A stretch of 64,000 bases of DNA from Patescibacteria group bacterium (GTDB taxonomy: Bacteria; Patescibacteriota; Patescibacteriia; 2-02-FULL-49-11). Each line of letters starts with the position of its first letter. The stretch's first letter is position 1. The translations under genes were made by a program, and so were the position numbers. The stretch is taken from the NCBI GenBank assembly GCA_041645165.1, contig JBAZQN010000011.1, positions 1,254 through 65,253 of the forward strand, read 5' to 3'. The notes under the pieces were generated by a model. It saw only the letters and a program-made list of their open reading frames with translations. It was not told the origin of the DNA and made no database searches. Positions 3,527-55,445 of this stretch are shown one piece after another.

Positions 3527-4822
3527 ATGTCACTGAAACGTAAATTAATACAACGAATCTTGGGTTGGTTCGCCCGTAAAATAATCCATAAATATCAGCC
3601 AAGGGTGATAGGGATTACGGGAAGCGTCGGCAAGACGTCAGCGAAGGAGGCGGTCGCCAAAGTGCTTGAGGGGAGTTTTGCGGTGCGCAAAAATGAGAGG
3701 AATTATAATACGGAAATCGGCATCCCGCTTGCCATTATTGGCTATGCAGGGCAGCCGAAATCTTTTTTTAATTGGCTAGAGGTGCTTCTGAATGCGATTG
3801 AGCTGCTGCTTTTTAAAGACCGCGGCTATCCCACTGTACTCGTGCTTGAGATGGGCGCTGACCATCCCGGCGATATTCGGACGCTCACAAAAATTGCGCC
3901 TTGCGATATCGGCGTCGTAACCGCAGTGGGGCCCACGCACTTGGAATATTTTAGTACGGTGGAAGAAGTGCTGAAGGAAAAATCCATCCTCGTTTCACAT
4001 TTACGAAAAGGGGGAACGGCGATACTCAATCACGATGACGCGCTTGTGTATCCCTTGCGGCACAGAACACAAGCGCAGGTGTTTACCTATGGCTATGCGG
4101 CATCCGCATCGGTACAAGCGGTCGAGGCGAAGACCTCACTTGATCCTTGGCTTCAAAATAAAAAGAGCGATTATTTGGGCGGCGTGACGTTCAAGCTGGT
4201 TTTTCAAGGCGCGACCGTGCCCATCCGTCTCCAAGGGCTTATCGGTAACCCGCCCGTGTATGCCGCACTCGCCGCTGCGGCCGTCGGCATCAACCTCGGC
4301 CTCAATCTCCATACGATCGCAGAGCGGTTGAGTGCATTGAAAGGATTGCCTGGACGGCTCACACTCATCCGTGGCGTGCGCGGCACGCTTATTATTGATG
4401 ATACCTATAATTCCTCGCCCGTAGCTGCAGTGGAGGCGTTGTCGCTCCTGCGGGATTTGGCGCCTTCTGGACATCGCACGTGGGCGGTATTGGGCGATAT
4501 GCTTGAATTGGGCGCATACACAAAAGAAGCGCATGAGGAGGTGGGGAGCGCGGTGGTGGCGAAAGCGAACGCCAGTATGCTCATAACCGTGGGAGAACGG
4601 GCACGCGATATTGCGCGCGCAGCAATGAAAGCGGGGTTAAGCAGTAATATGGTGTTTAGTTTCGCCACCCCAGAGGAGGCGGGACGATTTATCCAAAATA
4701 GACTCCAGGAGGGAGATGTGTTGCTGGTGAAGGGCTCGCGGGGAATGCATATGGAAACCGTGGTAAAAGAGCTTATGGCAGAACCCTTAAGGGCGGATGA
4801 ATTGCTTGTGCATGAGCATTGA
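3527..4822 (+). CDS. murF: UDP-N-acetylmuramoyl-tripeptide--D-alanyl-D-alanine ligase
   Basis: 431 aa with the Mur-ligase P-loop ITGSVGKTSAKE and the overall MurF domain order. Confidence 0.9.
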   Translation: MSLKRKLIQRILGWFARKIIHKYQPRVIGITGSVGKTSAKEAVAKVLEGSFAVRKNERNYNTEIGIPLAIIGYAGQPKSFFNWLEVLLNAIELLLFKDRGYPTVLVLEMGADHPGDIRTLTKIAPCDIGVVTAVGPTHLEYFSTVEEVLKEKSILVSHLRKGGTAILNHDDALVYPLRHRTQAQVFTYGYAASASVQAVEAKTSLDPWLQNKKSDYLGGVTFKLVFQGATVPIRLQGLIGNPPVYAALAAAAVGINLGLNLHTIAERLSALKGLPGRLTLIRGVRGTLIIDDTYNSSPVAAVEALSLLRDLAPSGHRTWAVLGDMLELGAYTKEAHEEVGSAVVAKANASMLITVGERARDIARAAMKAGLSSNMVFSFATPEEAGRFIQNRLQEGDVLLVKGSRGMHMETVVKELMAEPLRADELLVHEH

Positions 4823-6305: not shown

Positions 6306-7076
6306 TTGCTTATGATTATAGTATGGTCTATTCTCGGTTTTGCGTTATTATTGCTCATATCAGGTCTGCGGGTGATTGATCAGTATGAGCGGGGAGTAGT
6401 GCTTACCCTTGGAAAATATACGAGCACGCGAGTTCCTGGATTGAGATGGATATTTCCTGTGATCCAGCGGATGATCAAGATAGATCTTCGGATTACGACG
6501 ATTGACATTCCCCAGCAGGAAGTGATTACCAGAGACAACGTGCCGGTGGGGATCAATGCAGTGGTGTACTTCCAGGTAGAGGTGGCGGAAAATGCGATTT
6601 TGAATATCAAGGATTATACTCTTGCGGTGTCCCAGTACGCCCAGGCTGCTTTGCGGGATGTCATTGGCGGGATAGAGCTTGATTCGCTCCTGACGGAGCG
6701 GGAAAAGACCGCGGAGGTGATTAAAAAAATCGTGGACGAGGCCACGAAAGTATGGGGCATCAATGTCACTGACATCAAGATTCAGGATATTGAGCTGCCT
6801 GCGGATATGAAGCGCGTGATGGCCAAGCAGGCAGAAGCCGAGCGTGAACGCCGCGCCATTATCATTAAGGCAGAAGGGGAGTATTCCGCGTCAGAAAGGC
6901 TCGCACAGGCGGCAGAGCGCTTGAGCAGCGCCCCTGGCGGCATATCGCTGCGCACGCTTTCGACTATTGAAAAATTAAATCCTGATCCTTCGAAGATGGT
7001 CATCTTCACGCTGCCGGTAGAATTTTTTGAAGGTATCAAGACGCTCTCGTCATTCCTTCGCGACAAAAAGAAGTAG
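6306..7076 (+). CDS. SPFH/band-7 (stomatin/prohibitin-like) membrane protein
   Basis: 256 aa. N-terminal TM helix followed by the SPFH core (RVIDQYERGVVLTLGKY… QEVITRDNVPVGINAVVYFQV…) and a C-terminal coiled coil. Confidence 0.8.
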   Translation: MLMIIVWSILGFALLLLISGLRVIDQYERGVVLTLGKYTSTRVPGLRWIFPVIQRMIKIDLRITTIDIPQQEVITRDNVPVGINAVVYFQVEVAENAILNIKDYTLAVSQYAQAALRDVIGGIELDSLLTEREKTAEVIKKIVDEATKVWGINVTDIKIQDIELPADMKRVMAKQAEAERERRAIIIKAEGEYSASERLAQAAERLSSAPGGISLRTLSTIEKLNPDPSKMVIFTLPVEFFEGIKTLSSFLRDKKK

Positions 7077-7185
7077 AGGGGTTTATTCAAGCGTAGAGTA
7101 GCGTGGCAGTTTATCTGCCACCCACCATGTCGCAGACATCCCAGTCATTCGACGGGATAAAAGCTGCGACGCTACAGAGAGCTAA

Positions 7186-7285
7186 GGCGCCGTAAAAAAA
7201 TAACATATCCCGCCATCTACGCCGTACGTCAACAAAATAAGGACAAACCTATGGGACAAGTGAAATGTTATTTTTTTAAGCGCCC
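7186..7285 (+). repeat. ~100-bp dispersed repeat (ggcgccgtaaaaaaataacatatcccgccatctacgccgtacgtcaacaaaataaggacaaacctatgggacaagtgaaatgttatttttttaagcgcc), copy 1
   Basis: A near-identical copy lies at about 52324-52426, nested inside a MITE-A copy. Both copies generate the same spurious ORF start MGQVKCYFFKRP. Confidence 0.85.
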
Positions 7286-7301
7286 TAATGTGCTGAAGGG
7301 C

Positions 7302-8063
7302 TTATTTGATCACTTTCAAGAATCCCTCGACAAGGCTTGCCGTTTCTTCGGTGCTCTGGAATACCGATTTCCAGACCACGACAATGTCAGCGTCGTTGAA
7401 GATGACGCTCTGCGCTTCGCGGAGGGTGTCGCCGCCTGCGACCGCGATAAGCACGTCATAGTTCCCTTTGATCCTCCTGATCTCATGCAAGGGGAGCATC
7501 TTTTGCCTGTTAATCCGCTCTTCATCCACGCCGCGGTGGAGGATAACCACCGGCGGTATTTTTTTAAGCGCGCGCAGCACGGTGAGGGGAAATTCCACGT
7601 TCATCATGTCCACCATGGCGTCGAGCCCGAGCGATTGGCAGGTATCGATAAATGCATTAAGTGTTTCCACTGGCGCGTTTCCCAGTGCTACCGCGGCGCT
7701 CGCGCCGGCACGCGCCGCCATTTCGACTTCCGTGGATCCTCTGTCCATGGTTTTTAAGTCAGCAATGATATAAGGAATTTCAGTTATTTCATTTTGGAGT
7801 TGGAGAGGATGAGAGAGGGAGGAAAGTGCAAACCGGGGGTTAATCGTAAAGCGTCCGTATAATTTTTCGCTCCACCAATATACGATTTTTCTGATGCCCT
7901 CCTCGCCATACTGCTTGATAAGGGGTGTGCCCGCCTCTATCAAAATGCGGTTATCAGGAGGCAGCTGTTCAATAATACTGCGGGCTTCTTCAAGCGTATT
8001 GTTGAGCGCCACTTGCAGATAGCGCTTTTTATGGTCAAGTTTTGACTTATTCTTATTCATCAT
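7302..8063 (-). CDS. 3-hexulose-6-phosphate synthase-like protein (OMP-decarboxylase/KGPDC family)
   Basis: 253 aa. Motifs LQVALN…IEAGTPLIK…IIADLKTMDRG…GAS match the HPS/KGPDC TIM-barrel signature (LQVALD…EVGTPLI…ADxKxxDxG). Confidence 0.6.
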   Translation of the reverse strand: MMNKNKSKLDHKKRYLQVALNNTLEEARSIIEQLPPDNRILIEAGTPLIKQYGEEGIRKIVYWWSEKLYGRFTINPRFALSSLSHPLQLQNEITEIPYIIADLKTMDRGSTEVEMAARAGASAAVALGNAPVETLNAFIDTCQSLGLDAMVDMMNVEFPLTVLRALKKIPPVVILHRGVDEERINRQKMLPLHEIRRIKGNYDVLIAVAGGDTLREAQSVIFNDADIVVVWKSVFQSTEETASLVEGFLKVIK

Positions 8064-18784: not shown

Positions 18785-19738
18785 TTATTTTGAAATTTTT
18801 CGCTGTCGGGTTCTATTTTTAAGGTATCGCTCGATTGCCTCTTTTGAAGTTAACCAATTCCTGCCTTCTTTGTATGCTTCGAGTTTTCCTTGTCTCGCAA
18901 GTAAGTTTAGATATTTGGCGGAAAATGGGGTATTTTTAGATATCTCTGCCAATGTTACGAACTTTTCTTGTTTTTGTGTTGCCGGAGTTAAAGTTTTTAG
19001 ATAAATATCAAGGGAGCGCTCTATGGATTGAGCGATAAATTTCACCAATGGTTCATATTTTCCACTGTCTGCCTTGTCCAACACATCGTAATATTTTTTG
19101 TGGTCATTTTTCAAAATAATAACCAGCGGATAGCCAGTTTTCATCAGCAATACATTCATGGCTAAACGTGCGGTCCTGCCATTGCCGTCAAAAAATGGAT
19201 GAATATGTGTTAGTTTATGATGCAGTAAAGCTGAAAGCTCAATGATATTAATCTTATTTTTTTGTGAATTAAGCCAGTTGATTAAATCTCTCATTTTTTG
19301 GGGCACTTGCAATGCGTCGGGTGGTGTATGTTTCGCTCCGCCAATAATTACGTTAGCGTTCCTGTATTTCCCGGCCCACTCTTTGTCAGTTTCCCGTATA
19401 ATAATTTGGTGTAAATTTCGTATGAGCATTTCAGAGATGGTGTGTTTTTTATTTTTATCTATTAAGTCATACAGATATTCCAGCGCGGCATGATGGTCTT
19501 TTGCTTCCAAATGGTCTTTTAAAGGTTTTCCCTTTACTGTTATGCCTTCGTTAATAACTAAAAATGTCTCTTTTAAAGTTAAGGAATTGCCTTCAATGGC
19601 ATTTGAGTTGTAGGTCATTTCTATTTGAAATTTTTCCCGCAGTTTTTGTACCGCAGATTTTGGTAGGGGACGAAGTTTATTTAGTTTAATGAGTTTTTCT
19701 TCCAGTCGGGTTTTTATAATTGGCGATAGATAAGTCAT
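18785..19738 (-). CDS. Fic-family protein (AMPylation/Doc fold)
   Basis: Canonical Fic motif HPFFDGNGRTARL. 317 aa with a C-terminal HTH-like tail. Confidence 0.85.
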   Translation of the reverse strand: MTYLSPIIKTRLEEKLIKLNKLRPLPKSAVQKLREKFQIEMTYNSNAIEGNSLTLKETFLVINEGITVKGKPLKDHLEAKDHHAALEYLYDLIDKNKKHTISEMLIRNLHQIIIRETDKEWAGKYRNANVIIGGAKHTPPDALQVPQKMRDLINWLNSQKNKINIIELSALLHHKLTHIHPFFDGNGRTARLAMNVLLMKTGYPLVIILKNDHKKYYDVLDKADSGKYEPLVKFIAQSIERSLDIYLKTLTPATQKQEKFVTLAEISKNTPFSAKYLNLLARQGKLEAYKEGRNWLTSKEAIERYLKNRTRQRKISK

Positions 19739-19924
19739 AGGATAATACTTAATATGGTTTAGTTAATTATTTAGAGTATACCATATTAAGGAATTGGGTC
19801 AATTTCAGATATAAATTTGTCGTTTTTGGAGCTCCGCATCAAGTGCGGGGTAAACTCCGCGGAAAAAACACTATATTTCCCCTCTAAAAATAAAAAAGAA
19901 AAAATTTTATAAAAAATAATATTT

Positions 19925-20040
19925 CACATAACATTTGCGTATATCTGATGTTTTGTGGAGCGTAGCGGAGCAAAATATGGGTGTAGGCTCACGAAAGAGC
20001 CGTAGCCAGATATACGTTGTTAGCTGATGTATATGTTTTT
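19925..20040. repeat. attC-like palindrome A (gcgtatatctg … cagatatacg, then tGTTAGCTgatgtatatg)
   Basis: Its core gcgtagc…aaatatgggtg is shared with element C at 21588. Confidence 0.45.
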
Positions 20041-20095
20041 CCTTGTCGTTTATCCACCTCCGCCGAATACTCTGCAGTTCCGCTCGAGGAGGGGT

Positions 20096-20413
20096 TCATT
20101 TTTTGATTTTGTTGAACAATGCGGCAAACAACCAAACAGCAAGAATCGTCACAATGTTCCAGATAACTAAACCTGAAATAAAGTAGCCAAAGCTAAGAAA
20201 ATCTGATTTAAAAGATACATCGGTATGCAGAGAAAATTTCATAAATAGTTCCCTGCTTGGTGGATAGATTGCTACGCCGACATAACAGATTGTATAAACT
20301 ATACTTACCCACGCTGAGGCGATTTTTATCAAATGTTTTGAATTTATCATATTTTTAAAATTAATTACCATGTAAAATAATAGTTTTTTAATTTTGTTCG
20401 CGTTTGCTGGCAA
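20096..20413 (-). CDS. hypothetical small membrane protein
   Basis: 105 aa, three hydrophobic helices, AT-rich. Overlaps the next ORF by 26 nt. Confidence 0.45.
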   Translation of the reverse strand: MPANANKIKKLLFYMVINFKNMINSKHLIKIASAWVSIVYTICYVGVAIYPPSRELFMKFSLHTDVSFKSDFLSFGYFISGLVIWNIVTILAVWLFAALFNKIKK

Positions 20414-20966
20414 GATTAATGATGCAAACGTAGAAAATGTAAGACAGAATAGTAGCGGGAATATTGATAATGTTATAGACCAAATTATTTAGCTCATTTG
20501 GATTCAAATAATGCAACCTTTGAATTATTGGTGATGTTTCTCCTGTAAGATTTACAAGTTTGAGAGCTAATAGGATAATCACACCAATTAGCACAATCAG
20601 GATAAATTTTATTATCCATCTATAAACAAAAAGGTTGATAATATTTTTAAGTGTAAGAGATCTATGAAATAATTTCAGGATCAGTTTAGTGGCCAATATA
20701 ACTATAGTGACAATAACAAGAACACTTAGTAGCATCAACAATATAGCAACAACACCACCAAATAGTTTTGTCCCTAAACCAATGTGTGCATACTGAATAT
20801 TAAATTCTGCTATTTGGTTTAGTAGTTTGCTATAACCCGTAAACAAATTTAGTAGTATGGTTATCAAATAAAAGCCGACCAACCAGAGAATTAGTTTGAT
20901 AGATATTTTATTGTCGGGCAGTTGGTGAATAAATTGTTTAGGATGGAAGAGTAGCTTTATGTTCAT
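20388..20966 (-). CDS. hypothetical polytopic membrane protein
   Basis: 192 aa, five or six TM helices, AT-rich. Confidence 0.45.
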   Translation of the reverse strand: MNIKLLFHPKQFIHQLPDNKISIKLILWLVGFYLITILLNLFTGYSKLLNQIAEFNIQYAHIGLGTKLFGGVVAILLMLLSVLVIVTIVILATKLILKLFHRSLTLKNIINLFVYRWIIKFILIVLIGVIILLALKLVNLTGETSPIIQRLHYLNPNELNNLVYNIINIPATILSYIFYVCIINLASKREQN

Positions 20967-21050
20967 ATTTTTTTCGGTCTTTAAAAAATTAAAAAGGGCT
21001 CTTATAATAAAAAAGAAAAAATTTAATAAATGAAAACCGAGTAATATGTC

Positions 21051-21127
21051 GCCTAACGTTTCGGGATCAAGCGAAGTATTTTCGCTAGAAAATATTTTGC
21101 TTATCCCGTGTTATCGGATGTAATTTT
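21051..21127. repeat. attC-like palindrome B (GCCTAAC-gtttcgggat … atcccgtg-GTTATCG-gatgtaatttt)
   Basis: 77 bp. Follows the TAA stop of the 21133..21561 ORF by 6 nt on the coding strand. Confidence 0.5.
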
Positions 21128-21132
21128 ATTTT

Positions 21133-21561
21133 TTAACGAATAAATTTACAATAAGACTTAGAGCAATCAACGTTTGTCAATTTATTTGGATAATTAGAAT
21201 ATTCTTTTTTTACGTAATTAAAATAACGATTTAGTATGGTACGTCTTGCTTCTAATGCATTTTTTGAATAATCTGGATTATGTGGTTTGCCGGGATTATT
21301 TGTATCTTCTTCGTATATTAAAATATATTCATCATCATTAATTAATCCTAATTTTTTTGCATTAGAGAAGAAGGTTGGGCATCTAGATGTGTTATGATCA
21401 AAACAACTGTCATAAGAATCATGTTCACTGGCAATTAAAAAATCAACTTTTTTCTTGTCTTGCTCAGACAATTGTTCATAATTGGAATAAGATAAGTTAT
21501 TAGCAGAGCATCCTGATAGCAAGATTGTCACTAAAATAAAAATGAGTTGTTTGTTAAGCAT
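21133..21561 (-). CDS. hypothetical lipoprotein
   Basis: Signal peptide plus lipobox LLSGC. 142 aa. Confidence 0.5.
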   Translation of the reverse strand: MLNKQLIFILVTILLSGCSANNLSYSNYEQLSEQDKKKVDFLIASEHDSYDSCFDHNTSRCPTFFSNAKKLGLINDDEYILIYEEDTNNPGKPHNPDYSKNALEARRTILNRYFNYVKKEYSNYPNKLTNVDCSKSYCKFIR

Positions 21562-21587
21562 AAGTAAAAATTAGGATTAAATAATAT

Positions 21588-21681
21588 TATTTCCGATAAC
21601 GTCCGCGTGTATGCGATGTTTGCGTAGCAAATATGGGTGGAGCGACCGTAGGGAGCGTAACCGCATACACGCTGTTAGGCG
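21588..21681. repeat. attC-like palindrome C (cGATAAC-gtccgcgtgtatgcg … cgcatacacgc-tGTTAGGC)
   Basis: 94 bp. On the coding strand the TAA stop of the 21675..22493 ORF lies inside the GCCTAAC box. Confidence 0.55.
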
Positions 21682-22493
21682 ATGTAAATTTTAGACTTTT
21701 TTAATCTCGCAACAAATTCATCTTTTGTCATCACCACTTGTCTTACCTCTGGCTTTTCTCCCGTTGTCAAATATTTTTCCAGAGATCTCTTGTTGTATTG
21801 TAATGCTAAGTGTTGAACGGCTACAACGTCGCTATCGTCTGGCAAAGTATCTTCTATTGAAATTTCATCACCCAAGAGCAGTCTGGCTTTCCCTTCCATT
21901 TTTTTATTAAGTAGCCAAGATTTCATCATAATTCTGTCTGCCGTGATTTCTCCCGTTTCTAATTTAGCACCTATCGTTTGAAAGCCATCTATGATTTTAG
22001 AAATTAATTCTGCGCTTTTCACTCCCGTTGGTCTAATATGTAATGAAATTTCATCATCACCAGCTTTTTTGTATGCGATAACATCATTGACATGAACCAT
22101 GCCAGATCCTTCCTCAACCTCATCCGCTTTTCTGTTCCATTCAGCGAAAAATAGATTGGCAATTGGTGAAGAGGCTAATCTGTTGGCGAAGTTATCTCTG
22201 GAAAAATTATTTTCTTGACATTCCTGCAGGGCGGAATTAATTATTTGATATAATTCTTGTTTTGCTTCGGAATGTTGAATCTCTTCGCCTGAGCTACCCA
22301 ATCTAGAAACATAAAGATCAGCCATTCTTTCTGTAATTGCGCTTTTGTTTTCAGCGCCCTCGGCATGGAGTAAGTTTTGATATAGTTCAAATCCACCAGC
22401 AAATCTAATAAACGCAGGGTTTGATAAAACCATCTCCTTTGTTTTTTCTATTCCTTCTTGATGAATTTGTTGCGGTTGTTCGTTTTCTCCCAT
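21675..22493 (-). CDS. hypothetical protein (272 aa)
   Basis: Long AT-rich ORF with no recognised motif. Its stop is embedded in the repeat box. Confidence 0.45.
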   Translation of the reverse strand: MGENEQPQQIHQEGIEKTKEMVLSNPAFIRFAGGFELYQNLLHAEGAENKSAITERMADLYVSRLGSSGEEIQHSEAKQELYQIINSALQECQENNFSRDNFANRLASSPIANLFFAEWNRKADEVEEGSGMVHVNDVIAYKKAGDDEISLHIRPTGVKSAELISKIIDGFQTIGAKLETGEITADRIMMKSWLLNKKMEGKARLLLGDEISIEDTLPDDSDVVAVQHLALQYNKRSLEKYLTTGEKPEVRQVVMTKDEFVARLKKSKIYIA

Positions 22494-22504
22494 ATTTAAA
22501 AAAG

Positions 22505-22722
22505 TCTAAAATTTATTTCGCCTAACGTATCTGTGTATGAGAAGTCCCGCGCCATTGTAAAACGATTAATTCGTGGAACTTCTTACACAGTTATTTTATC
22601 AAATTAAATGTGGTATTAGCAATAGCGGGATTTGGGTGAAAAAAATATGGCGACCTTAAAATTTATATAAATGCCATATTTTTTGAACCTCATACACAGT
22701 GTTGTGCGATGTAAATTTTTTA
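22505..22722. repeat. attC-like palindrome D (aaaatttatttc-GCCTAAC-gtatctgtgtatgag … ctcatacacag-tGTTGTGC-gatgtaaatttt)
   Basis: About 215 bp with an unusually long central region. Its end motifs match B and C and the attI-like site. Confidence 0.45.
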
Positions 22723-22878
22723 TCCTCGTTTTTAATGGTATAAGCTTTATCTGTTCTAAAAGAAAATTTGATTTTTTGTCTTGGCTCAAAAAAGAGGGGT
22801 TAGGGGTGAATTTTTTGAGCCAAGACACATTAAAGAATTTTTATTTCAACTGCTTTTAGGATGTAACGATAACACAAC

Positions 22879-23430
22879 TTAGTCTTTAAAATCAAATTCA
22901 ATTTGGCTATCGCCGGGACGGATATATTGGGGATGAGGCCCGGTAAGATCAAAGCTTGCTTCGCAATATACTGTGGAGTTTTTTTCTTGAGATAAACGAG
23001 GAAAAGTAGCTGTTTGGACATGAGAGACAACAACATGCCACTGACTGTATAGTATATTTTGGTTTAGTAGTTTTTTTACCTTGCCCAAGCGTTCAAAATG
23101 CATGTTAACTATTGTTCCGTCGATAGTAATTGGCTGTTGAAATTTCATATTAAACTTGGTGGTATAAAATCTATTCTCTAATCCTGCTTTAGCAATATGT
23201 TTTAAAAATGCCTCACCTATATAACCCTGTAATTTATAACCACCGACATGGTCATCCTTATCTGGATGCATATGAGTTTTAATTTGTTCATCAAACTCAC
23301 TAAACTCAGATGAAGGTAAAACTTCGCTGGCCCGATTAAACGCAAGATCTACCTTCTTCTGATGTTCAGGGGTTTTGAGTACCTGGTCCCTAGTTGAACC
23401 GTAAAAATTTTCAGTATATTCTTTTGTCAT
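22879..23430 (-). CDS. hypothetical protein (183 aa)
   Basis: AT-rich ORF. The HMHPDKDDH segment is only loosely MBL-like, so no call is made. Confidence 0.4.
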   Translation of the reverse strand: MTKEYTENFYGSTRDQVLKTPEHQKKVDLAFNRASEVLPSSEFSEFDEQIKTHMHPDKDDHVGGYKLQGYIGEAFLKHIAKAGLENRFYTTKFNMKFQQPITIDGTIVNMHFERLGKVKKLLNQNILYSQWHVVVSHVQTATFPRLSQEKNSTVYCEASFDLTGPHPQYIRPGDSQIEFDFKD

Positions 23431-23450
23431 ATAAGAAAAATTACTATTTT

Positions 23451-24320
23451 TTAATTTTTACGAAATAAATTATGCCGAAATTCCGTACAAAGAGGCAGTT
23501 TAGTTTTATTAATTAAGTCAAGATTATCAGCTGTACAAATTCTGGCCTTAATACCGAATTTATGAAAGGCATTGATTAACCTTTGAAACGCTAGAATTCT
23601 TTTTCTAAATGGTAAAGTATAACCAAGTTTGGTTGTTACTTGTCTGACGGCAGTCATTTTGCTAATGGCTTTCAAAATCAACTTATCATTTAAATCAACG
23701 ATCCGTTGTTTCTGTGGCTCCGGTAATACGCCGGTACCAATGATGCATCGTTTTACTCCAATCCCGCTTAATACCCGTGGAAGATCTTCAATACTTTCAT
23801 TTTTTTCATAAATATCAAACCACGGCATCACCACGACGATAACTGGTACGCCGCCTCTAATTAATTTTCTTATTATTTCCAGTCTTTTGATAATTGGAGC
23901 CGCACCGGGCTCTAAAAGAGAAAGAAGTCTCTGGTTTAGACTCGGTAATGATATTTGAACAACAACGCGATGTTTATTTGTTATTAACAATTTGATAGAT
24001 TTATTAGGAATCACTTGTTTAGTGACTATTAATGGCACAAAATCTTCTTTTCTTTTCCAAACATGTTCTAACAGATAATGGGTCAGGTCGCAATTGGCGG
24101 GCAAAAAACAGTCAGCGACGGCGCTAAAGTAAGTTCCCTTAAACTTCTGTAAATTTTTCAAAACCTCTTTCCGGCCAGAGACGATTATTTGATCACTATC
24201 AAATTGTTTCCGGTGAAGATCACAATACAAACAGGGTTTTGGACAACGTTTCCCGAAGACCACCACTGGTACAGCCTGACAAGGATACATTGGTTTCACT
24301 AATATAATATCGTTTGTCAT
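23451..24320 (-). CDS. radical SAM domain protein (SplB-like CxxxCxxC)
   Basis: Motif CPKPCLYC near the N-terminus. 289 aa, AT-rich. Confidence 0.55.
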   Translation of the reverse strand: MTNDIILVKPMYPCQAVPVVVFGKRCPKPCLYCDLHRKQFDSDQIIVSGRKEVLKNLQKFKGTYFSAVADCFLPANCDLTHYLLEHVWKRKEDFVPLIVTKQVIPNKSIKLLITNKHRVVVQISLPSLNQRLLSLLEPGAAPIIKRLEIIRKLIRGGVPVIVVVMPWFDIYEKNESIEDLPRVLSGIGVKRCIIGTGVLPEPQKQRIVDLNDKLILKAISKMTAVRQVTTKLGYTLPFRKRILAFQRLINAFHKFGIKARICTADNLDLINKTKLPLCTEFRHNLFRKN

Positions 24321-24435
24321 ACTATAATTTGTAAAATTAAGTCTTTAATTTGTTCCCCTCTTAAATAAAATAAAAAATCAAATTTTCTTCGTGGTTAATG
24401 GATTAAAACTTGGAATTAATAGAAAAGATAAAAAA

Positions 24436-24475
24436 TTTATTTCGTACAACTGGTTAATATGTGGAAAGATATATG
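24436..24475. promoter_or_regulatory. attI-like half-site (aaaatttatttcGTACAACtggttaat) between the recombinase gene and the first cassette
   Basis: On the cassette strand it reads GTTGTAC-gaaataaatttt, the same extended 3' box as the attC-like elements (GTTAGGC-gaaataaatttt), with no partner 5' box. Confidence 0.4.
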
Positions 24476-24494
24476 ATTAGTATACCAAATTTGT

Positions 24495-25346
24495 ATGATA
24501 TGTGGAGTGTATGATATTCTAATTGTAGATTCTATGGCTAATCTACTGGATATTTTAACTCGGGAGATGGTATTGCGCAATTATAGCCGGAAAACCATTG
24601 CGGCGTATACCAGCGCGGTCAAAGGCCTGTTTACTTTTTACAGAAAACCATTGCGTGATTTGTCATTGGAAGAGATTAAGGAATACTTGTACATCAAGCA
24701 GCAAAAGAAATTTTCCAGCCAGACGATCGCGCTCGCGGCCAATGCCATTAATTTCCTCTATACTCAGATTTACAAGAGACCTAACTTTGAAAAAATTCGG
24801 CATCCCAAACGAAGCCAGAGGTTGCCGGAAGTATTGAGCCGCATTGAAATTGAAAAAATATTGGAGCAGATTGAGAACATCAAGCATCGTTTGCTTATCG
24901 CCTGCGCCTATGGAGCGGGATTGCGGGTAAGCGAGGTGGTGCGGCTGCGCGTACAGGATATTGATATGGCAGATAAAACGATCACGGTCAGACAGGGCAA
25001 AGGCAGAAAAGACCGGCTGACCGTGTTATCAGGAAAGATCGTTAGTGACTTGGAAAAGTTCCTTGTTGGCAAAGAAGGACGAGATTGGGTGTTTGAGAGC
25101 GAACGCGGCGGACGGCTGACCGAAGCCACGGCGCAAAAAGTATTTTATGCCGCTCTTAAGAGAGCGGGGATTAAAAAGCATGCGACATTCCATTCTCTGC
25201 GGCATAGTTTTGCCACGCACCTTTTGGAAAACGGGGTAGACGTGCGTTATGTGCAGGAACTTTTGGGGCATGCGAATATCAGGACCACGCAGATTTACAC
25301 CAAAGTGACGAATCCAAGTCTGAAGAATATAAGAAGCCCGTTGTGA
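24495..25346 (+). CDS. tyrosine site-specific recombinase (XerC/XerD/integrase family)
   Basis: Catalytic residues R (AGLRVSE), K (KGRKDR), HSLRHSF, GHANIRTTQIY with the nucleophile Tyr. The likely start is the ATG at 24534 (MANLLDILT…), giving about 271 aa, which is too short for a canonical IntI. Confidence 0.85.
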   Translation: MICGVYDILIVDSMANLLDILTREMVLRNYSRKTIAAYTSAVKGLFTFYRKPLRDLSLEEIKEYLYIKQQKKFSSQTIALAANAINFLYTQIYKRPNFEKIRHPKRSQRLPEVLSRIEIEKILEQIENIKHRLLIACAYGAGLRVSEVVRLRVQDIDMADKTITVRQGKGRKDRLTVLSGKIVSDLEKFLVGKEGRDWVFESERGGRLTEATAQKVFYAALKRAGIKKHATFHSLRHSFATHLLENGVDVRYVQELLGHANIRTTQIYTKVTNPSLKNIRSPL

Positions 25347-25361
25347 TCGTGAAATTTCATT

Positions 25362-25403
25362 GTTTGTTTCTGGATCCCGCATCACGTGCGGGATGACATG
25401 AAA
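25362..25403 (+). repeat. hairpin-element family H (ttgtttctggatcccgcatcacgtgcgggatgaca), copy at the recombinase 3' end
   Basis: Perfect palindrome atcccgcatca(a/c)gtgcgggat. Other copies lie at 13420 (in-frame), 25941 (in-frame) and a partial one at 19828. Confidence 0.85.
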
Positions 25404-46889: not shown

Positions 46890-48044
46890 ATGCCCCGCGT
46901 CGCCGTGATCATAGTCACCTATAATAGCGCCCGGTTCCTCCCGGAACTTTTCGTAAGCCTTAAGGCCATGCAGCATCCCGCCGGCGGGGTGCAGTTTATT
47001 TTTGTGGACAATGCTTCTGCCGATCACAGTCCAGAATTGGTACGCGAGGCAATGCCGGATGCGGCATTGGTTCGTGAAAAAGAAAATAGAGGATTTTCTG
47101 CAGGTGTGAATGCAGGCTTGAGGCACCCGTTGGCGCAAGGCGTGGAATTTATCGCGCTTCTCAATCCTGACACGGTGGTGCATCCGGATTGGCTCACGGC
47201 CCTCGTGAACGCGTTGGAAGGACAGCGTAAGGCTGTCTCTGCTCAATCTCTTATTCTTTACGCGCAGGATCGCGAGAAGGTAAATTCAGCGGGAAATAGT
47301 ATCCACTTTTTAGGGTTTGGTTTTAGTCAAGCTAACGGGCAGTCCCGATCTGTCATTCTGAACGAAGTCCCGATACCATCGGGACGGAATGAGGAATCGC
47401 CCACGAATGTGGGCTCGCATACGCGAGAGATCCTTCGTCCCGATGCGCTTGGGACTCAGGATGACGTTAAACTCAGCACACATTTCATCACCTACGCGAG
47501 CGGGGCTGCAGTGCTGTACCGACACAATGCGTTGAAGGAAATTGGTTTATTCGACGAAAACCTTTTTATGTACCATGATGATCTTGACGTGGGGTGGAAA
47601 TTTTTGTTACGCGGATACCAGAATATTTTAGTACCCTCCTCGATAGTTTATCATCATTACGAATTTTCACGCAGCATCCGGAAATATTACTGGATAGAGC
47701 GCAATAGGCTCTTGCTCCTGCTTACGCATTATAAATTCAGCACCCTGTTATTAATTTTACCCGCATTAATTATTCTTGAATTCGGGTTGATGTTTTTCGC
47801 GCTCTACCGCGGTTTTTTTGGCGCGCGACTGCGTGCGTACGTATGGATATTTGTTCATGTGCCTTTAATTATGAAAAAACATAAATACGTGCAGAATATA
47901 AGAACACAGCCTGATAAGGCCGTACTTGGATCATTTACCGGTGTCATTACTGACCAAGAGATAAGCAATCCTCTTGTGGAATATGTTATGAATCCGGTGT
48001 TTGCATTATATCTTGCCTTTCTCCGTTATGTTATACGATGGTAG
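46890..48044 (+). CDS. GT2 glycosyltransferase carrying an in-frame RPE-like palindromic insertion
   Basis: VAVIIVTYNSARFL … FVDNASAD … DxD region. Nucleotides 47345-47465 (gtcattctgaacgaagtcc…gggactcaggatgac) encode …SRSVILNEVPIPSGRNEESPTNVGSHTREILRPDALGTQDD…. Confidence 0.8.
   Translation: MPRVAVIIVTYNSARFLPELFVSLKAMQHPAGGVQFIFVDNASADHSPELVREAMPDAALVREKENRGFSAGVNAGLRHPLAQGVEFIALLNPDTVVHPDWLTALVNALEGQRKAVSAQSLILYAQDREKVNSAGNSIHFLGFGFSQANGQSRSVILNEVPIPSGRNEESPTNVGSHTREILRPDALGTQDDVKLSTHFITYASGAAVLYRHNALKEIGLFDENLFMYHDDLDVGWKFLLRGYQNILVPSSIVYHHYEFSRSIRKYYWIERNRLLLLLTHYKFSTLLLILPALIILEFGLMFFALYRGFFGARLRAYVWIFVHVPLIMKKHKYVQNIRTQPDKAVLGSFTGVITDQEISNPLVEYVMNPVFALYLAFLRYVIRW
47345..47465 (+). repeat. 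RPE-like palindromic element, copy 1 (gtcattctgaacg…cccacgaatgtgggctcgcatacgcgagagatccttc…ggtcaggatgac)
   Basis: Terminal arms are inverted-complementary. Copies lie at 48701-48794 and, reversed, at 50514-50573. Confidence 0.85.
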
Positions 48045-55324: not shown

Positions 55325-55445
55325 ATCCGAAATCCTAAACAAGCTCAAAACACAAAATTCGAAATATTCCTATCCCTTAATATTTCGATGATTTGAATCT
55401 CGAATTTTGGATTTGTTTAGGGTTTAGAGTTTAGAATTTAGTATT
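55305..55445. repeat. heptamer-periodic quasi-palindrome upstream of dnaK (ctaaatc/cgaaatc/ctaaaca … gtttagg/gtttaga/gtttaga)
   Basis: Homologous to 42735-42875. Confidence 0.8.

What the first reader, a model, noticed from the sequence alone, without database searches (positions are those of the whole stretch)
18785..25403. Integron-like cassette array next to a short Xer-like tyrosine recombinase rather than an IntI
Seen directly: a roughly 4.5 kb block (19.9-24.5 kb) has 30-37% GC against about 50% in the flanks. It holds six co-oriented minus-strand ORFs of unrelated character: a radical SAM CxxxCxxC protein, a 183-aa unknown, a 272-aa unknown, a lipoprotein, and two membrane proteins; a Fic gene may also belong. 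Each ORF group is followed on its coding strand by a 77-215 bp imperfect palindrome. The two ends of each palindrome are the integron attC core boxes RYYYAAC (GCCTAAC, cGATAAC, GCACAAC) and GTTRRRY (GTTAGGC, GTTATCG). The boxes sit in longer conserved frames, aaaatttacatc-RYYYAAC and GTTRRRY-gaaataa. In the 21675..22493 ORF the TAA stop sits inside GCCTAAC, which is a known habit of integron cassettes. A tyrosine recombinase gene (24495/24534..25346) is transcribed divergently from the array. The site nearest to it (24436-24475) keeps only the GTTGTAC-gaaataaatttt half-site, as an attI would. Established knowledge: integrons have a divergent intI, then attI, then ORF-less-promoter cassettes each ending in an attC with these 7-bp cores. 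Inference: the recombinase is only about 271-283 aa and Xer/phage-integrase-like, with no room for the IntI-specific insertion. So this is either a cassette-capture system using a non-IntI recombinase, or a MITE family that converged on attC-like ends. Some boxes are degenerate (GTTATCG, GTTGTGC), and element D is unusually long.
Basis: partly seen in the sequence, partly recalled or inferred. Interest (0 to 1): 0.85.

Follow-up and report, generated by a model that had tools for sequence, protein, structure and literature searches.

The report
Integron-like cassette array, integrase lacking I2
This stretch of an uncultured Patescibacteria (CPR) genome is a working-looking gene-cassette array built like an integron, but its recombinase lacks the protein insertion thought to be indispensable for integrons, and the same arrangement recurs across the whole CPR radiation.

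Summary
Window 19.9-24.5 kb is a low-GC array of four gene cassettes, plus a Fic unit that has no attC. All are on the minus strand. Each cassette ends in a 66-188 nt hairpin site with RYYYAAC/GTTRRRY cores. The array is transcribed divergently from a 270-aa tyrosine recombinase (24534-25346), beyond an attI-like junction at 24444-24450. The recombinase's closest solved relative is the integron integrase VchIntIA, followed by archaeal XerA. It lacks the roughly 42-residue IntI additional domain (I2) and misses the integron-integrase HMM cutoff.

This is not a one-off or a MITE. In 80 genomes fetched through the recombinase, all 60 strict sites lie upstream of it on the opposite strand. Metagenome arrays reach 8 sites, always on one strand. 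Cassette ends are self-complementary. One cassette is present or absent between the same neighbours, with the junction at ACG|TTA. The closest relative has a different first cassette, with identity breaking exactly at AAC.

The sites differ from canonical attC. They have a 3-nt bulge on the opposite arm, an extended R stem with a fixed 2-nt mismatch, and a conserved three-way junction. I found no published description. I judge it a new variant of the integron kind, of high interest.

The parts
24534..25346 (+). Tyrosine recombinase of 270 aa (an alternative upstream ATG at 24495 would give 283 aa). It is IntI/XerA-like and lacks the IntI additional domain (I2).
   Evidence: - Domains are PF13495 plus PF00589. 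NF040815 scores 228.4 against a cutoff of 220. TIGR02249 (integron integrase) scores 221 against 265. XerC and XerD score 192 and 190 against about 330.
- The best PDB sequence match is VchIntIA 2a3v, with chain residues 195-238 skipped in the alignment.
- Aligned with IntI1, it lacks about 42 residues.
- The AlphaFold model has pLDDT 89.3, and its best structural match is 2a3v, then XerA.
- It is 100% identical to an NCBI Patescibacteria MAG protein.
24439..24533 (.). attI-like region. On the + strand it reads ATTTC-GTACAA|C-TGGTTA-ATATGTGGA, with the crossover at C 24450 (G of GTTGTAC on the minus strand). A second direct copy of ATATGTGGA lies at 24498-24506, inside the recombinase promoter region. 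A candidate outward promoter, TCCACA-16-TATACT, lies at 24506-24479 (-).
   Evidence: The same layout, aTTTC-RYYYAAC|TCGTTTATATGCGAA plus a second GCGAA box, sits about 75-120 bp upstream of the start codon in most of the roughly 45 genuine attI junctions listed. Identity with the closest relative L001 is about 90% to the right of AAC and random to the left. The promoter match is and is not above chance.
22526..24449 (-). Cassette 1. It holds a radical-SAM protein (23451-24320), a 183-aa unknown (22879-23430), a terminator-like hairpin (22758-22846) and attC-like site 1 (22520-22707, 188 nt).
   Evidence: The cassette's own ends are complementary: repeat I2, and 13 of 14 variable positions.
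21600..22525 (-). Cassette 2. It holds a 272-aa unknown (21675-22493, with its stop codon inside R'') and attC-like site 2 (21594-21680, 87 nt).
   Evidence: The ends are complementary over 31 nt at 94% (repeat I1) and at 14 of 14 variable positions.
21057..21599 (-). Cassette 3. It holds a 142-aa lipoprotein (21133-21561) and attC-like site 3 (21051-21116, 66 nt).
   Evidence: This is the best covariance-model hit, at 32 bits and E 3e-06. The ends are complementary: repeat I8, and 13 of 14 positions.
19932..21056 (-). Cassette 4. It holds a Yip1-domain membrane protein (20388-20966), a DUF5676 2TM protein (20096-20413) and attC-like site 4 (19926-20025, 100 nt).
   Evidence: The site closely resembles sites in other genomes, for example L010 and L019.
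18785..19931 (-). Terminal unit. It starts with the cassette 5' signature TTATGT-GAAAT and carries a Fic/HTH gene (18785-19738) with its own promoter-like site (19802-19775). No attC-like site follows it.
   Evidence: The half-site scan finds nothing downstream of it. GC content is 0.32-0.39. Whether it belongs to the array is inferred, not shown.

Best explanation
This is a chromosomal, integron-type gene-cassette platform of a Patescibacteria (CPR) bacterium. Its recombinase is a 270-aa IntI/XerA-like tyrosine recombinase that has no I2 additional domain.

**Shown**
- The recombinase gene is transcribed divergently from an attI-like site.
- Beyond attI lie co-oriented cassettes of one or two ORFs.
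- Each cassette is bounded as 5'-TTRRRY-GAAAT...ORF...ACATC-RYYYAAC-A-[11-bp L'']-[three-way junction]-[11-bp L']-NNNC-G-3'.
- Cassettes are discrete mobile units. They are inserted or lost at ACG|TTA, they are shared between genomes whose chromosomal flanks have diverged more, and their two ends are mutually complementary.
- The same architecture accompanies this recombinase family across many CPR lineages.

**Inferred**
- attC x attC recombination excises a cassette as a circle. In the circle, the cassette's own ends form a stem of 22 bp or more.
- The bottom strand (the window + strand) folds into R stem, 3-nt bulge and L stem.
- One recombinase monomer, bound to the arm ATTTC-RYYYAA, cleaves between A and C.
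- A single strand is exchanged with the double-stranded attI core (ATTTCRYYYAA|CTCGTT(T)|ATATGCGAA).
- The central regions are heterologous and bulged, so they block the second exchange. This resembles the CTX-phage hairpin at dif, and would replace the role I2 and the extrahelical bases play in integrons. Replication then resolves the junction.
- The fixed GAAAT/ACATC mismatch and the A.C (top) versus G.T (bottom) position give strand and orientation choice.
- GCGAA boxes in the promoter region may let the recombinase regulate itself.
- Cassettes are expressed from the attI side or from their own promoters (Fic).
For: **Anatomy in the window.**

**Recombinase identity and absence of I2.**

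**Link between sites and recombinase.**
- 60 of 60 strict sites are upstream of the recombinase and on the opposite strand. None is elsewhere and none appears in shuffles. 38 of 46 loci with more than 1.5 kb of upstream DNA have at least one site.
- An earlier scan without the weight matrix already showed the bias: 77 hits against 19, 28 and 18.
- Sites found in metagenomes by pattern alone form arrays of up to 8, never on both strands. In 5 of the 6 loci that contain a recombinase homologue, it lies in the expected divergent position.

**Structure rather than sequence is conserved.** The 11-bp L stem is 98% paired, with compensatory changes at 9 of 11 pairs.

**Cassette ends are self-complementary.**
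- At variable positions, a cassette's own ends match at 10.1 of 14, against 5.2 of 14 for non-self pairs (p = 4e-15).
- An independent metagenome set gives 10.1 against 5.1 (p = 3e-28).

**Mobility and crossover point.**
- L070 reads X|Z, L042 reads X|Y|Z and L074 reads W|Y|V. The Y junctions fall inside AACG|TTAT.
- Cassette Y is 86.6% identical between genomes whose adjacent chromosomal genes are 72% identical.
- L063 and L070 share 5.7 kb of distal flank, ending 36 bp from the last site, yet their arrays differ.
- Identity between the window and L001 breaks at AAC.
- 27 of 80 contigs end within 450 bp upstream of the recombinase, against 0 of 80 downstream.

**Strand asymmetry.** The bottom strand is the more stable fold in 63 of 67 sites, at -23.4 against -20.5 kcal/mol (p = 2e-11).

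**Cassette content.** ORFs lie on the cassette strand (67.9 kb against 2.8 kb), and the median cassette is 1.1 kb. Cargo is unrelated accessory genes.
Against: - Nothing here shows catalysis. That this recombinase acts on these sites is inferred from adjacency.
- Published work holds that I2 is necessary for cassette capture and single-strand recombination (PMC7790495). An I2-less enzyme doing this is therefore unexpected.
- The reciprocal test is weak. Only 6 of 80 pattern-found metagenome stretches contain the recombinase. Only 3-4 of the 15 with at least 3 kb of upstream DNA do. Some arrays may therefore be served in trans, lie far from the gene, or be relics.
- The recombinase family is very large and strongly conserved (50-70% identity across CPR classes). 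That is the pattern expected of a housekeeping Xer.
- Sites were selected for pairing, which inflates the percentage paired.
- The data cannot tell single-strand from double-strand recombination. In duplex form, each L'-R' half also resembles the attI core.
- The extra bases sit on the opposite arm to canonical extrahelical bases, so the analogy with attC folding may not hold in detail.
Confidence: 0.8

Rival explanations
1. Housekeeping Xer with hitch-hikers. On this reading the recombinase is the single chromosome-dimer resolvase of CPR bacteria (the 'Cand' Xer subgroup). The site next to its gene is its dif-like target, as with XerS/difSL or XerH/difH. The cassettes are miniature IMEX-type elements that integrate there as dif-mimicking hairpins and pile up. 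The array is then a by-product of parasitism of Xer rather than a dedicated capture system.
For: - The literature files this family as Xer-related and presumes Xer function (PMC8138268).
- NF040815 (XerA) is the only curated model whose cutoff is met.
- The family is huge and highly conserved, and there is one copy in the 64-kb window.
- The attI core reads as two inverted 11-bp arms around a 6-7 bp centre, with about 7 of 11 positions symmetric.
- Escudero et al. proposed exactly such a Xer-plus-single-stranded-IMEX stage as the origin of integrons (PMC7790495).
Against: - There is no GC-skew sign change at the locus in the window (+0.126 / +0.113) or in 20 of 21 loci with both flanks. The site is therefore not at the terminus, where dif sits.
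- One MAG carries two such loci, each with an attI-like site: L031 and L051.
- The units are promoterless one- or two-ORF cassettes with no replication or phage functions, unlike known IMEXs.
- This rival differs from the best explanation only in what the enzyme's primary job is. The cassette mechanism is the same.
Confidence: 0.3
2. Purely double-stranded cassette exchange. The recombinase performs classical two-strand recombination between the directly repeated duplex L'-spacer-R' sites and attI, in the manner of dif or pdif modules. The inverted R''-L'' half would serve another purpose, such as a transcription terminator or an mRNA 3' stabiliser.
For: - In duplex form each L'-NNNC-GTTRRRY-GAAAT half resembles the attI core, with arm ATTTCRYYYAA, a centre, and a (T)ATGCG-like arm.
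- The enzyme has no I2.
- IntI itself retains low double-strand activity (PMC7790495).
Against: - Beyond the first 1-2 bases, the central regions differ between attI (CTCGTT) and the sites (CGTCCG, CGTTTC, CATTTG and others), and they differ among the sites too. In tyrosine recombinases such heterology blocks the second exchange.
- The two ends of a cassette covary over 22 nt or more although they lie 0.5-2 kb apart. This makes sense only if they pair after circularisation.
- A G.T (bottom) versus A.C (top) asymmetry and greater bottom-strand stability in 63 of 67 sites point to a folded single strand.
- A terminator role does not explain the conserved RYYYAAC core or the ACATC frame.
Confidence: 0.12
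3. Recombinase-independent repeats. On this reading the palindromes are a MITE/REP-like family, or a cluster of attC sites (CALIN) served by a canonical IntI elsewhere, and their position next to this recombinase is coincidental.
For: - Many pattern-found metagenome stretches show no recombinase within 3-9 kb.
- CALINs are common for true integrons (PMC9668308).
Against: - 60 of 60 sites are upstream and divergent in recombinase-anchored loci, with none in 650 kb of downstream DNA.
- A half-site with a variable RYYY is fused to a conserved attI directly upstream of the recombinase promoter in most family members.
- No locus has sites on both strands.
- Of the 8,000 candidate homologues scored, 7,835 pass E<=1e-20, and all 120 listed are 259-286 aa, with no I2-length members.
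- Contigs break at attI.
Confidence: 0.04

Closest known systems
Integrons (IntI integrase, attI, attC gene cassettes)
   Same: - The recombinase gene is divergent from the array and sits next to attI.
- Cassettes are co-oriented and mostly promoterless, with one or two ORFs, and each ends in an imperfect palindrome.
- The 7-bp cores are RYYYAAC and GTTRRRY.
- The crossover maps to G|TT.
- The first bases of a cassette are complementary to its own R''.
- Cassette content varies between close relatives.
- Cargo is accessory or unknown.
- The recombinase's nearest solved relative is VchIntIA (34-39% identity to IntI).
   Different: - There is no additional domain or I2 helix; about 42 residues are missing.
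- The recombinase scores below the TIGR02249 cutoff.
- The L box has no G/T extrahelical bases. Instead there is a 3-nt bulge on the R'/L' arm.
- The R stem extends by at least 15 bp into the cassette, with a fixed 2-nt mismatch (GAAAT/ACATC).
- The 'variable' terminal structure is a conserved three-way junction carrying the motif CCCAWAT.
- attI has a clear Xer-like core of two arms.
- The host range is the CPR, where I found no report of integrons.
IMEX elements, especially CTX-phage single-stranded hairpin integration at dif by XerC
   Same: - An I2-less Xer-type enzyme.
- A folded single strand that mimics a duplex core site.
- A mismatched or bulged centre that would allow only one strand exchange, followed by resolution through replication (this step is inferred here).
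- Successive elements can stack at the site.
   Different: - The units are 0.5-2 kb cassettes with no replication, phage or transfer genes.
- The site is not at the replication terminus.
- There is one recombinase, not a XerC/XerD pair.
- The site abuts the recombinase gene.
- Arrays hold many unrelated cassettes.
Archaeal XerA/dif and single-recombinase Xer systems (XerS/difSL, XerH/difH)
   Same: - The protein meets NCBIfam NF040815 (XerA).
- It has the same two-domain fold without insertions.
- A single recombinase acts on a target site that lies next to its own gene, as in XerS and XerH.
   Different: - No skew switch occurs at the site.
- The site is occupied by cassette arrays.
- Hairpin partner sites exist, which no XerA, XerS or XerH system is known to use.
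pdif modules of Acinetobacter plasmids
   Same: Small gene modules are bounded by Xer-type sites and are found in different contexts.
   Different: pdif modules are flanked by inversely oriented duplex XerC/D and XerD/C sites on plasmids. They are not hairpins and have no adjacent dedicated recombinase. Here all sites are direct repeats on one strand, on the chromosome, next to the recombinase.

Membership tests
Integron | Integrase is a tyrosine recombinase of the IntI lineage | tested here: inconclusive
   - IntI is the nearest solved relative by sequence (2a3v, E 5.8e-46) and by fold (E 2.6e-17, TMq 0.71).
- IntI1 accounts for nearly all plasmid hits, at 34.6% identity.
- TIGR02249 scores 221, below its cutoff of 265, while the XerA model NF040815 passes.
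- No phylogeny was built.
Integron | IntI-specific additional domain (I2 helix) around patch III, necessary for activity (Messier & Roy 2001, as cited in PMC9668308 and PMC7790495) | tested here: not met
   - The alignment to VchIntIA skips chain residues 195-238.
- The alignment with IntI1 shows about 42 residues missing in the window protein and in five CPR homologues.
- The model has only short strands and no helix between residues 177 and 196.
- The Foldseek alignment has 316 columns for 270 residues.
Integron | Integrase gene adjacent to an attI site at which cassettes are inserted | tested here: met
   The R' half-site is fused to conserved sequence 84 bp upstream of the start codon. The same junction occurs across the family. 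Identity to L001 breaks at AAC.
Integron | attC sites: imperfect palindromes with R''=RYYYAAC and R'=GTTRRRY, and with L''/L' pairing | tested here: met
   Four sites are in the window. In 43 aligned sites AAC and GTT are invariant, and the L stem is 98% paired with compensatory changes at 9 of 11 pairs.
Integron | Folded bottom strand with two extrahelical bases (typically G and T) in the stem, an unpaired central spacer and a variable terminal structure (PMC7439510) | tested here: not met
   - Bottom strands do fold, and fold better than top strands.
- The L stem is uninterrupted in three of the four window sites.
- The asymmetry is a 3-nt bulge on the 5' (R'/L') arm.
- The terminal structure is a conserved three-way junction.
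Integron | Crossover between G and TT of R' (A|C on the bottom strand), so that a cassette carries its attC at its 3' end | tested here: met
   The X|Z, X|Y|Z and W|Y|V comparison places both junctions of cassette Y within AACG|TTAT, and the hairpin travels with the ORF upstream of it. The resolution is the shared ACGTTA, not a single phosphodiester bond.
Integron | Cassette content varies between related genomes while the platform stays fixed | tested here: met
   See the window against L001, L063 against L070, and L042, L070 and L074.
Integron | Detected by IntegronFinder (attC covariance model plus the intI_Cterm HMM) | not testable with these tools
   Rfam holds no attC family, and nothing relevant was found in the region. 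IntegronFinder's models are not available here.
Integron | Integrase-catalysed attI x attC and attC x attC recombination | not testable with these tools
   This needs an experiment.
Xer/dif chromosome dimer resolution | Protein meets a curated Xer model | tested here: inconclusive
   XerC scores 192 against 335, and XerD 190 against 330, so neither is met. XerA_Arch scores 228.4 against 220 and is met, but that model's product name is 'site-specific tyrosine recombinase/integron integrase'.
Xer/dif chromosome dimer resolution | Target site at the replication terminus (GC-skew switch) | tested here: not met
   Skew in the window is +0.126 on the left and +0.113 on the right. The sign changes in only 1 of 21 loci that have both flanks.
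Xer/dif chromosome dimer resolution | Core site of about 28-30 bp: two inverted 11-bp arms around a 6-8 bp centre | tested here: inconclusive
   The attI consensus ATTTCGYYTAA|CTCGTT(T)|ATATRCGAAG can be read this way, with about 7 of 11 symmetric positions. This was read by eye and was not tested statistically.
MITE / REP-type dispersed palindromes | Copies dispersed through the genome in both orientations, with no link to one gene | tested here: not met
   In the 64-kb window the four array sites are the only significant hits. Across loci, 60 of 60 sites are upstream and divergent, and no metagenome locus has sites on both strands.
IMEX (integrative mobile elements exploiting Xer) | Self-contained element (phage, plasmid or island) carrying a dif-like site | tested here: not met
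   The units are 0.2-3 kb (medians 0.8-1.1 kb) with one or two accessory ORFs and no replication or transfer genes.

The most novel reading that the evidence does not exclude
CPR bacteria carry a widespread 'proto-integron' or parallel integron. In it, an I2-less recombinase positioned between Xer and IntI captures and shuffles folded single-stranded gene cassettes at a dif-like site next to its own gene. If so, the I2 domain is not required for hairpin-cassette recombination. The system would be the missing intermediate between Xer/IMEX hairpin integration and integrons, or an independent invention of the same solution. It would also be a major route of gene flow in an entire radiation of uncultured bacteria.
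Probability: 0.45. Interest if true: 0.95.

Novelty: new variant of a known kind. Interest (0 to 1): 0.88.

Why it matters
**Integron origins.** Integron biology rests on the view that the I2 insertion turned a Xer-like enzyme into one that recombines folded single strands. The field notes a 'lack of intermediates' (PMC7790495). Here a natural, abundant system has every genetic hallmark of cassette capture but no I2, and its hairpins solve asymmetry differently. That makes the origin question experimentally testable. One can ask whether this enzyme recombines hairpins, what replaces I2 and the extrahelical bases, and whether it still resolves dimers.

**Detection.** Integron surveys that require the I2 HMM would file these arrays, at best, as orphan attC clusters. 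They may therefore miss a whole radiation.

**CPR biology.** For the CPR it identifies a concrete mechanism for acquiring accessory genes: restriction-modification systems, NUDIX enzymes, transporters, a Fic toxin and many genes of unknown function. It also explains recurrent assembly breaks next to this gene.

**Tools.** The short recombinase and its structured sites could become new structure-specific recombination tools.

Tried and rejected
- **Rfam scans.** Scans of the region and of the whole window found only a tRNA. Rfam has no attC family.
- **Covariance model R1.** It finds the four sites but mis-aligns those with long terminal structures. I therefore used a weight-matrix-plus-stem scanner for the surveys. 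A first version that allowed G.T pairs gave many false hits and was tightened.
- **dif at the terminus.** Rejected on GC skew.
- **A cultivable example.** The best plasmid homologue, in Clostridium estertheticum at 40.7% identity, sits beside an IS91 transposase with no array. It is not the same system.
- **Phage carriage.** Only one IMG/VR contig matched the site pattern (L085). It has a 44%-identical recombinase in co-orientation and a different site subtype.
- **Reciprocal association from pattern-found metagenome contigs.** Inconclusive, because contigs are short and arrays long.
- **Promoter scan.** Counts equal chance, so the candidate cassette promoter is only a suggestion.
- **attC after Fic.** None was found.
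- **Phylogeny of IntI, Xer and the CPR family.** Not built, because Xer reference sequences could not be fetched. I relied on HMM scores, PDB sequence matches and PDB fold matches instead.
- **Literature.** Eight searches found no description of integrons or cassette arrays in Patescibacteria/CPR. Subscription journals are not covered, so prior description cannot be excluded.

Full report
**1. What is in the window**

GC content drops from 0.45-0.54 to 0.28-0.39 between about 19.4 and 24.6 kb. The block holds six co-oriented minus-strand ORFs, followed by a Fic/HTH gene at 18785-19738:

| ORF | Description |
|---|---|
| 289 aa | weak radical-SAM match |
| 183 aa | no family |
| 272 aa | no family |
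| 142 aa | lipoprotein signal |
| 192 aa | weak Yip1 match |
| 105 aa | DUF5676 |

Read on the coding strand, four sites follow the ORF groups:

| Site | + coordinates | Length | Ends |
|---|---|---|---|
| attC-like 1 | 22520-22707 | 188 nt | GCACAAC...GTTAGGC |
| attC-like 2 | 21594-21680 | 87 nt | GCCTAAC...GTTATCG |
| attC-like 3 | 21051-21116 | 66 nt | CGATAAC...GTTAGGC |
| attC-like 4 | 19926-20025 | 100 nt | AGCTAAC...GTTATGT |

- All four share one geometry: acatc-RYYYAAC-A-[about 11 nt L'']...[about 11 nt L']-NNN(C/T)-GTTRRRY-gaaat.
- The TAA stop of the 272-aa ORF lies inside GCCTAAC.
- Next to the recombinase only the right half exists: GTTGTAC-gaaataaatttt, at 24450-24432.
- A covariance model built later from 43 family sites ranks exactly these four first in the 64-kb window. 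The attI half-site appears among the weak hits.
- Frame motifs with 0-1 mismatch are confined to the block.

**2. The recombinase**

Homologues show that the protein starts at ATG 24534 and is 270 aa long.

- **Domains and curated models.** It has PF13495 plus PF00589.

| Curated model | Score | Cutoff |
|---|---|---|
| NF040815 (XerA_Arch, product name 'site-specific tyrosine recombinase/integron integrase') | 228.4 | 220 |
| TIGR02249 (integron integrase) | 221 | 265 |
| XerC | 192 | about 330 |
| XerD | 190 | about 330 |

- **Sequence against PDB.** The best solved relative is VchIntIA (2a3v, E 5.8e-46), ahead of XerA and XerD. The alignment jumps from chain residue 194 to 239.
- **Plasmids.** Against 72,556 plasmids nearly all hits are intI1, at 34.6% identity.
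- **Alignment with IntI1.** Aligned with IntI1 from pMAK3, the window protein and five CPR homologues all lack about 42 residues...[28 protein letters not shown]... and HTHSTDPRSGVV. This is the IntI additional domain. The catalytic motifs are kept.
- **Fold.** An AlphaFold model (pLDDT 89.3) has no helix at that position. Its best match is again 2a3v (E 2.6e-17, TMq 0.71, 316 alignment columns for 270 residues), then XerA.

The enzyme therefore sits in the IntI/XerA neighbourhood, is not XerC/D, and fails the defining IntI feature.

**3. It is a family-wide arrangement**

The protein is 100% identical to one from an NCBI Patescibacteria MAG. Of the 8,000 candidate homologues scored, 7,835 pass E<=1e-20, and the 120 listed are 259-286 aa. 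Eighty genome loci were fetched through the protein, from Magasanik-, Kuenen-, Moran-, Woese-, Berkel-, Saccharibacteria and others.

- **attI.** About 75-120 bp upstream of the start codon, most of these loci show aTTTC-RYYYAAC|TCGTTTATATGCGAA. It is followed either by an inverted TTCGTATA or by a second direct TTATGCGAA, the latter lying between the -35 and -10 of the recombinase promoter. The four RYYY positions vary. The sequence to the right of AAC is conserved.
- **Sites.** A scanner requiring both conserved frames and at least 9 of 11 L pairs found 60 sites. All 60 lie upstream of the recombinase on the opposite strand. None lies on the other strand or in the 650 kb downstream, and none appears in shuffles. 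38 of 46 loci with more than 1.5 kb of upstream DNA have at least one. An earlier scan without the weight matrix gave the same bias.
- **Structure.** In 43 aligned sites AAC and GTT are invariant. The L stem is 98% paired with compensatory changes at 9 of 11 pairs. Pairing was a selection criterion, but the diversity of pair types was not.
- **Independent set.** A scan of metagenome contigs with the site pattern alone returned 88 stretches, of which 80 were fetched. 67 of them hold 139 strict sites, in arrays of up to 8 (L153), 7 (L120) and 6 (L150). No locus has sites on both strands.

The MITE reading is excluded.

**4. Cassettes are discrete and mobile, with integron-type boundaries**

- **Self-complementary ends.**
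  - In the window, the two ends of each of cassettes 1-3 are complementary over 22-36 nt (I1, I2 and I8).
  - Across 55 cassettes, own ends match at 10.1 of 14 variable positions, against 5.2 for non-self pairs (p = 4e-15).
  - The independent metagenome set gives 10.1 against 5.1 over 72 cassettes (p = 3e-28).
  - Ends that lie 0.5-2 kb apart can only covary if they meet, that is, after circularisation.
- **A natural insertion.** L070 reads X-attC...TAACG|TTATGT-GAAATGCATG (Z). L042 reads X-attC...TAACG|TTATCG-GAAATTTGGGG...(Y, 809 bp, NUDIX)...AAACG|TTATGT-GAAATGCATG (Z). L074 carries the same Y between different neighbours, W and V. The hairpin travels with the ORF upstream of it, and both junctions fall within ACG|TTA, as in integrons.
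- **Evidence of transfer.** Y is 86.6% identical between two genomes whose adjacent chromosomal genes are 72% identical. X and Z are shared by genomes with no alignable downstream flank.
- **A fixed platform with variable content.**
  - L063 and L070 share 5.7 kb of distal flank at 81% identity. It ends 36 bp from the last site, yet their arrays differ.
  - The window and its closest relative L001 (87% identical recombinase) are about 90% identical to the right of AAC and unrelated to the left.
  - 27 of 80 contigs end within 450 bp upstream of the recombinase start, against 0 of 80 within 450 bp downstream of the stop. This is as expected if populations differ in the first cassette. L082 and L083 show the same break in two assemblies.
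- **Content.**
  - ORFs lie on the cassette strand (67.9 kb against 2.8 kb).
  - Median cassette length is 1.1 kb in genomes and 0.8 kb in metagenomes.
  - Cargo is unrelated: NUDIX, an N6/N4 methylase with a partner, Ltp lipoprotein, NIF3, CutA1, HNH, SMR/EamA, DedA, a Na/Ca exchanger and a type IIG restriction-modification enzyme in L081.
  - About half of the cargo has no Pfam hit.

**5. How the sites differ from canonical attC**

Canonical attC features are taken from PMC7439510: cleavage between A and C of the bottom-strand RYYYAAC, two extrahelical bases, an unpaired central spacer and a variable terminal structure. The CPR sites differ in five ways.

- **Bulge.** The bottom strand folds as R stem, one A:T or G.T pair, a 3-nt bulge on the 5' (R'/L') arm, and then an uninterrupted 11-bp L stem. 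From my recollection of Stokes 1997 and MacDonald 2006, canonical extra bases lie on the L'' arm, so the polarity is opposite.
- **Extended R stem.** It extends at least 15 bp into the cassette, with a fixed mismatch (GAAAT opposite ACATC).
- **Terminal structure.** It is a conserved three-way junction with CCCAWAT on the coding strand in 56 of 67 sites, and never on the other strand.
- **Strand asymmetry.** The bottom strand is more stable in 63 of 67 sites, at -23.4 against -20.5 kcal/mol (p = 2e-11).
- **Centre.** The bases after AA|C differ between attI (CTCGTT) and the sites, and among the sites.

**6. Mechanism proposed (inferred)**

- The attI core reads as ATTTCRYYYAA|CTCGTT(T)|ATATGCGAA, two imperfect inverted arms around a centre of 6-7 bp.
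- In the folded site the same arm (ATTTCRYYYAA) is presented in the R stem. The cleaved strand keeps the 6-nt spacing to the L stem, while the partner strand is 3 nt shorter.
- I propose cleavage at AA|C and one strand exchange with attI.
- The second exchange would be blocked because the centres are heterologous and bulged. This is the logic of the CTX-phage hairpin at dif, and here it would stand in for I2 and the extrahelical bases.
- Replication would then resolve the junction.
- Excision would be site x site recombination.
- The mismatch and the wobble positions would set strand and orientation choice.
- GCGAA boxes in the promoter suggest autoregulation.
- A TCCACA-16-TATACT match points into the array, and Fic has its own TTGACC-16-TATACT. 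Promoter matches overall are at chance level.

**7. Is it Xer/dif?**

- Smyshlyaev et al. filed this family as 'Cand', Xer-related recombinases of candidate phyla, and presumed that it substitutes for Xer (PMC8138268).
- The locus shows no GC-skew sign change in the window (+0.126 / +0.113), nor in 20 of 21 loci that have both flanks.
- One MAG has two such loci (L031 and L051).
- A dual role cannot be excluded. It is the main rival, and it would fit the scenario Escudero et al. proposed for integron origins (PMC7790495).

**8. Weak points**

- There is no biochemistry.
- In pattern-found metagenome stretches the recombinase is seen in only 6 of 80, and in only 3-4 of the 15 with at least 3 kb of upstream DNA. 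Long arrays, giant cassettes or recombinase-less clusters all remain possible. L128 illustrates the giant-cassette case, with an R' half-site 42 bp from the contig end and 8 kb of co-oriented genes.
- IntegronFinder could not be run.
- No phylogeny was built.

**9. Novelty**

Eight literature searches found no report of integrons or cassette arrays in Patescibacteria/CPR, and none of an I2-less integron. The archaeal-integron paper restates I2 as defining (PMC9668308).

I classify this as a new variant of the integron kind. It has the same genetic logic and core sequences, but the recombinase fails the defining domain test and the hairpin architecture differs. Interest is high, because it bears directly on how integrons arose and on gene flow in the CPR.

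Noticed in passing
window 19926-20025, 21594-21680, 22520-22707; loci L003-L081 sites (list): The 'variable' interior of the sites is a conserved three-way junction: hairpin A, then unpaired C(C/A)CCCA(A/T)AT, then hairpin B. CCCAWAT occurs on the cassette coding strand in 56 of 67 sites and never on the other strand. Its function is unknown; it might be an accessory-protein site, a priming signal, or an RNA 3' element.
   Followed up: partly
window 19877-19901, 20994-21018, 24353-24377: A T-rich tract followed by AGAGGGGAA-like sequence (repeat family D2) recurs about 30-95 nt after the GTTRRRY at the start of cassettes 1 and 4 and of the Fic unit. It may be a shared 5' leader or ribosome-binding region.
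   Followed up: no
window 22758-22846: A 36-nt inverted repeat (I3) lies between the stop of the 183-aa ORF and attC-like site 1. It contains the GC-rich stem GAGCCAAGAC with T runs and looks like a terminator inside the cassette. It helps explain why this intergenic stretch is long.
   Followed up: no
window 48030-48036 (-) and 55345-55421 (+): Two isolated features lie far from the array. One is a lone R''-like half-site (ccatcGTATAACa, score 17.4) with no partner. The other is a perfect 10-bp hairpin bounded by TCAAAAC...GTTTAGG. Both are probably chance or unrelated.
   Followed up: no
genome loci L001-L080; L082, L083; L128: Assemblies break at attI. 27 of 80 contigs end within 450 bp upstream of the recombinase start, against none downstream of the stop. 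Two independent assemblies of the same gene end 130-150 bp upstream. This suggests within-population cassette variation.
   Followed up: yes
21 loci with both flanks; window: GC skew is positive on the recombinase strand on both sides in 13 loci and negative in 4. The presumed folding (bottom) strand of the sites is therefore usually the G-rich leading strand, which is the template of lagging-strand synthesis. That placement would favour hairpin extrusion.
   Followed up: partly
L085 (IMGVR_UViG_3300000568_000548) 555-659, 4251-4355, recombinase 6632-7417: This is the only viral-collection contig matching the site pattern. It has a 44%-identical recombinase on the same strand as two sites of a different subtype (L stem TGTTCAC/GTGAACA). 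It may be a related system with inverted gene orientation, or a misbinned contig.
   Followed up: partly
L174 (Clostridium estertheticum plasmid pCF007-E) 8001-10038: The closest plasmid-borne homologue (40.7% identity, annotated 'site-specific tyrosine recombinase/integron integrase') overlaps the start of an IS91-family transposase gene and has no cassette array. This looks like a separate use of the same recombinase lineage.
   Followed up: partly
L031 and L051 (both from MAG JBAQNP01): Two paralogous recombinase loci, each with an attI-like junction, occur in one Moraniibacteriota MAG. This argues against a strictly single-copy housekeeping role.
   Followed up: no
L081 4820-9440: This example has three sites. 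Its third cassette is 3.1 kb and carries a type IIG restriction-modification enzyme (N6_Mtase/Eco57I/TaqI_C) plus a 245-aa ORF. The cassette start TTAGCT-GAAATATTCCTT also occurs in L033, L043 and L063, which hints at a defence cassette shared across genomes.
   Followed up: partly
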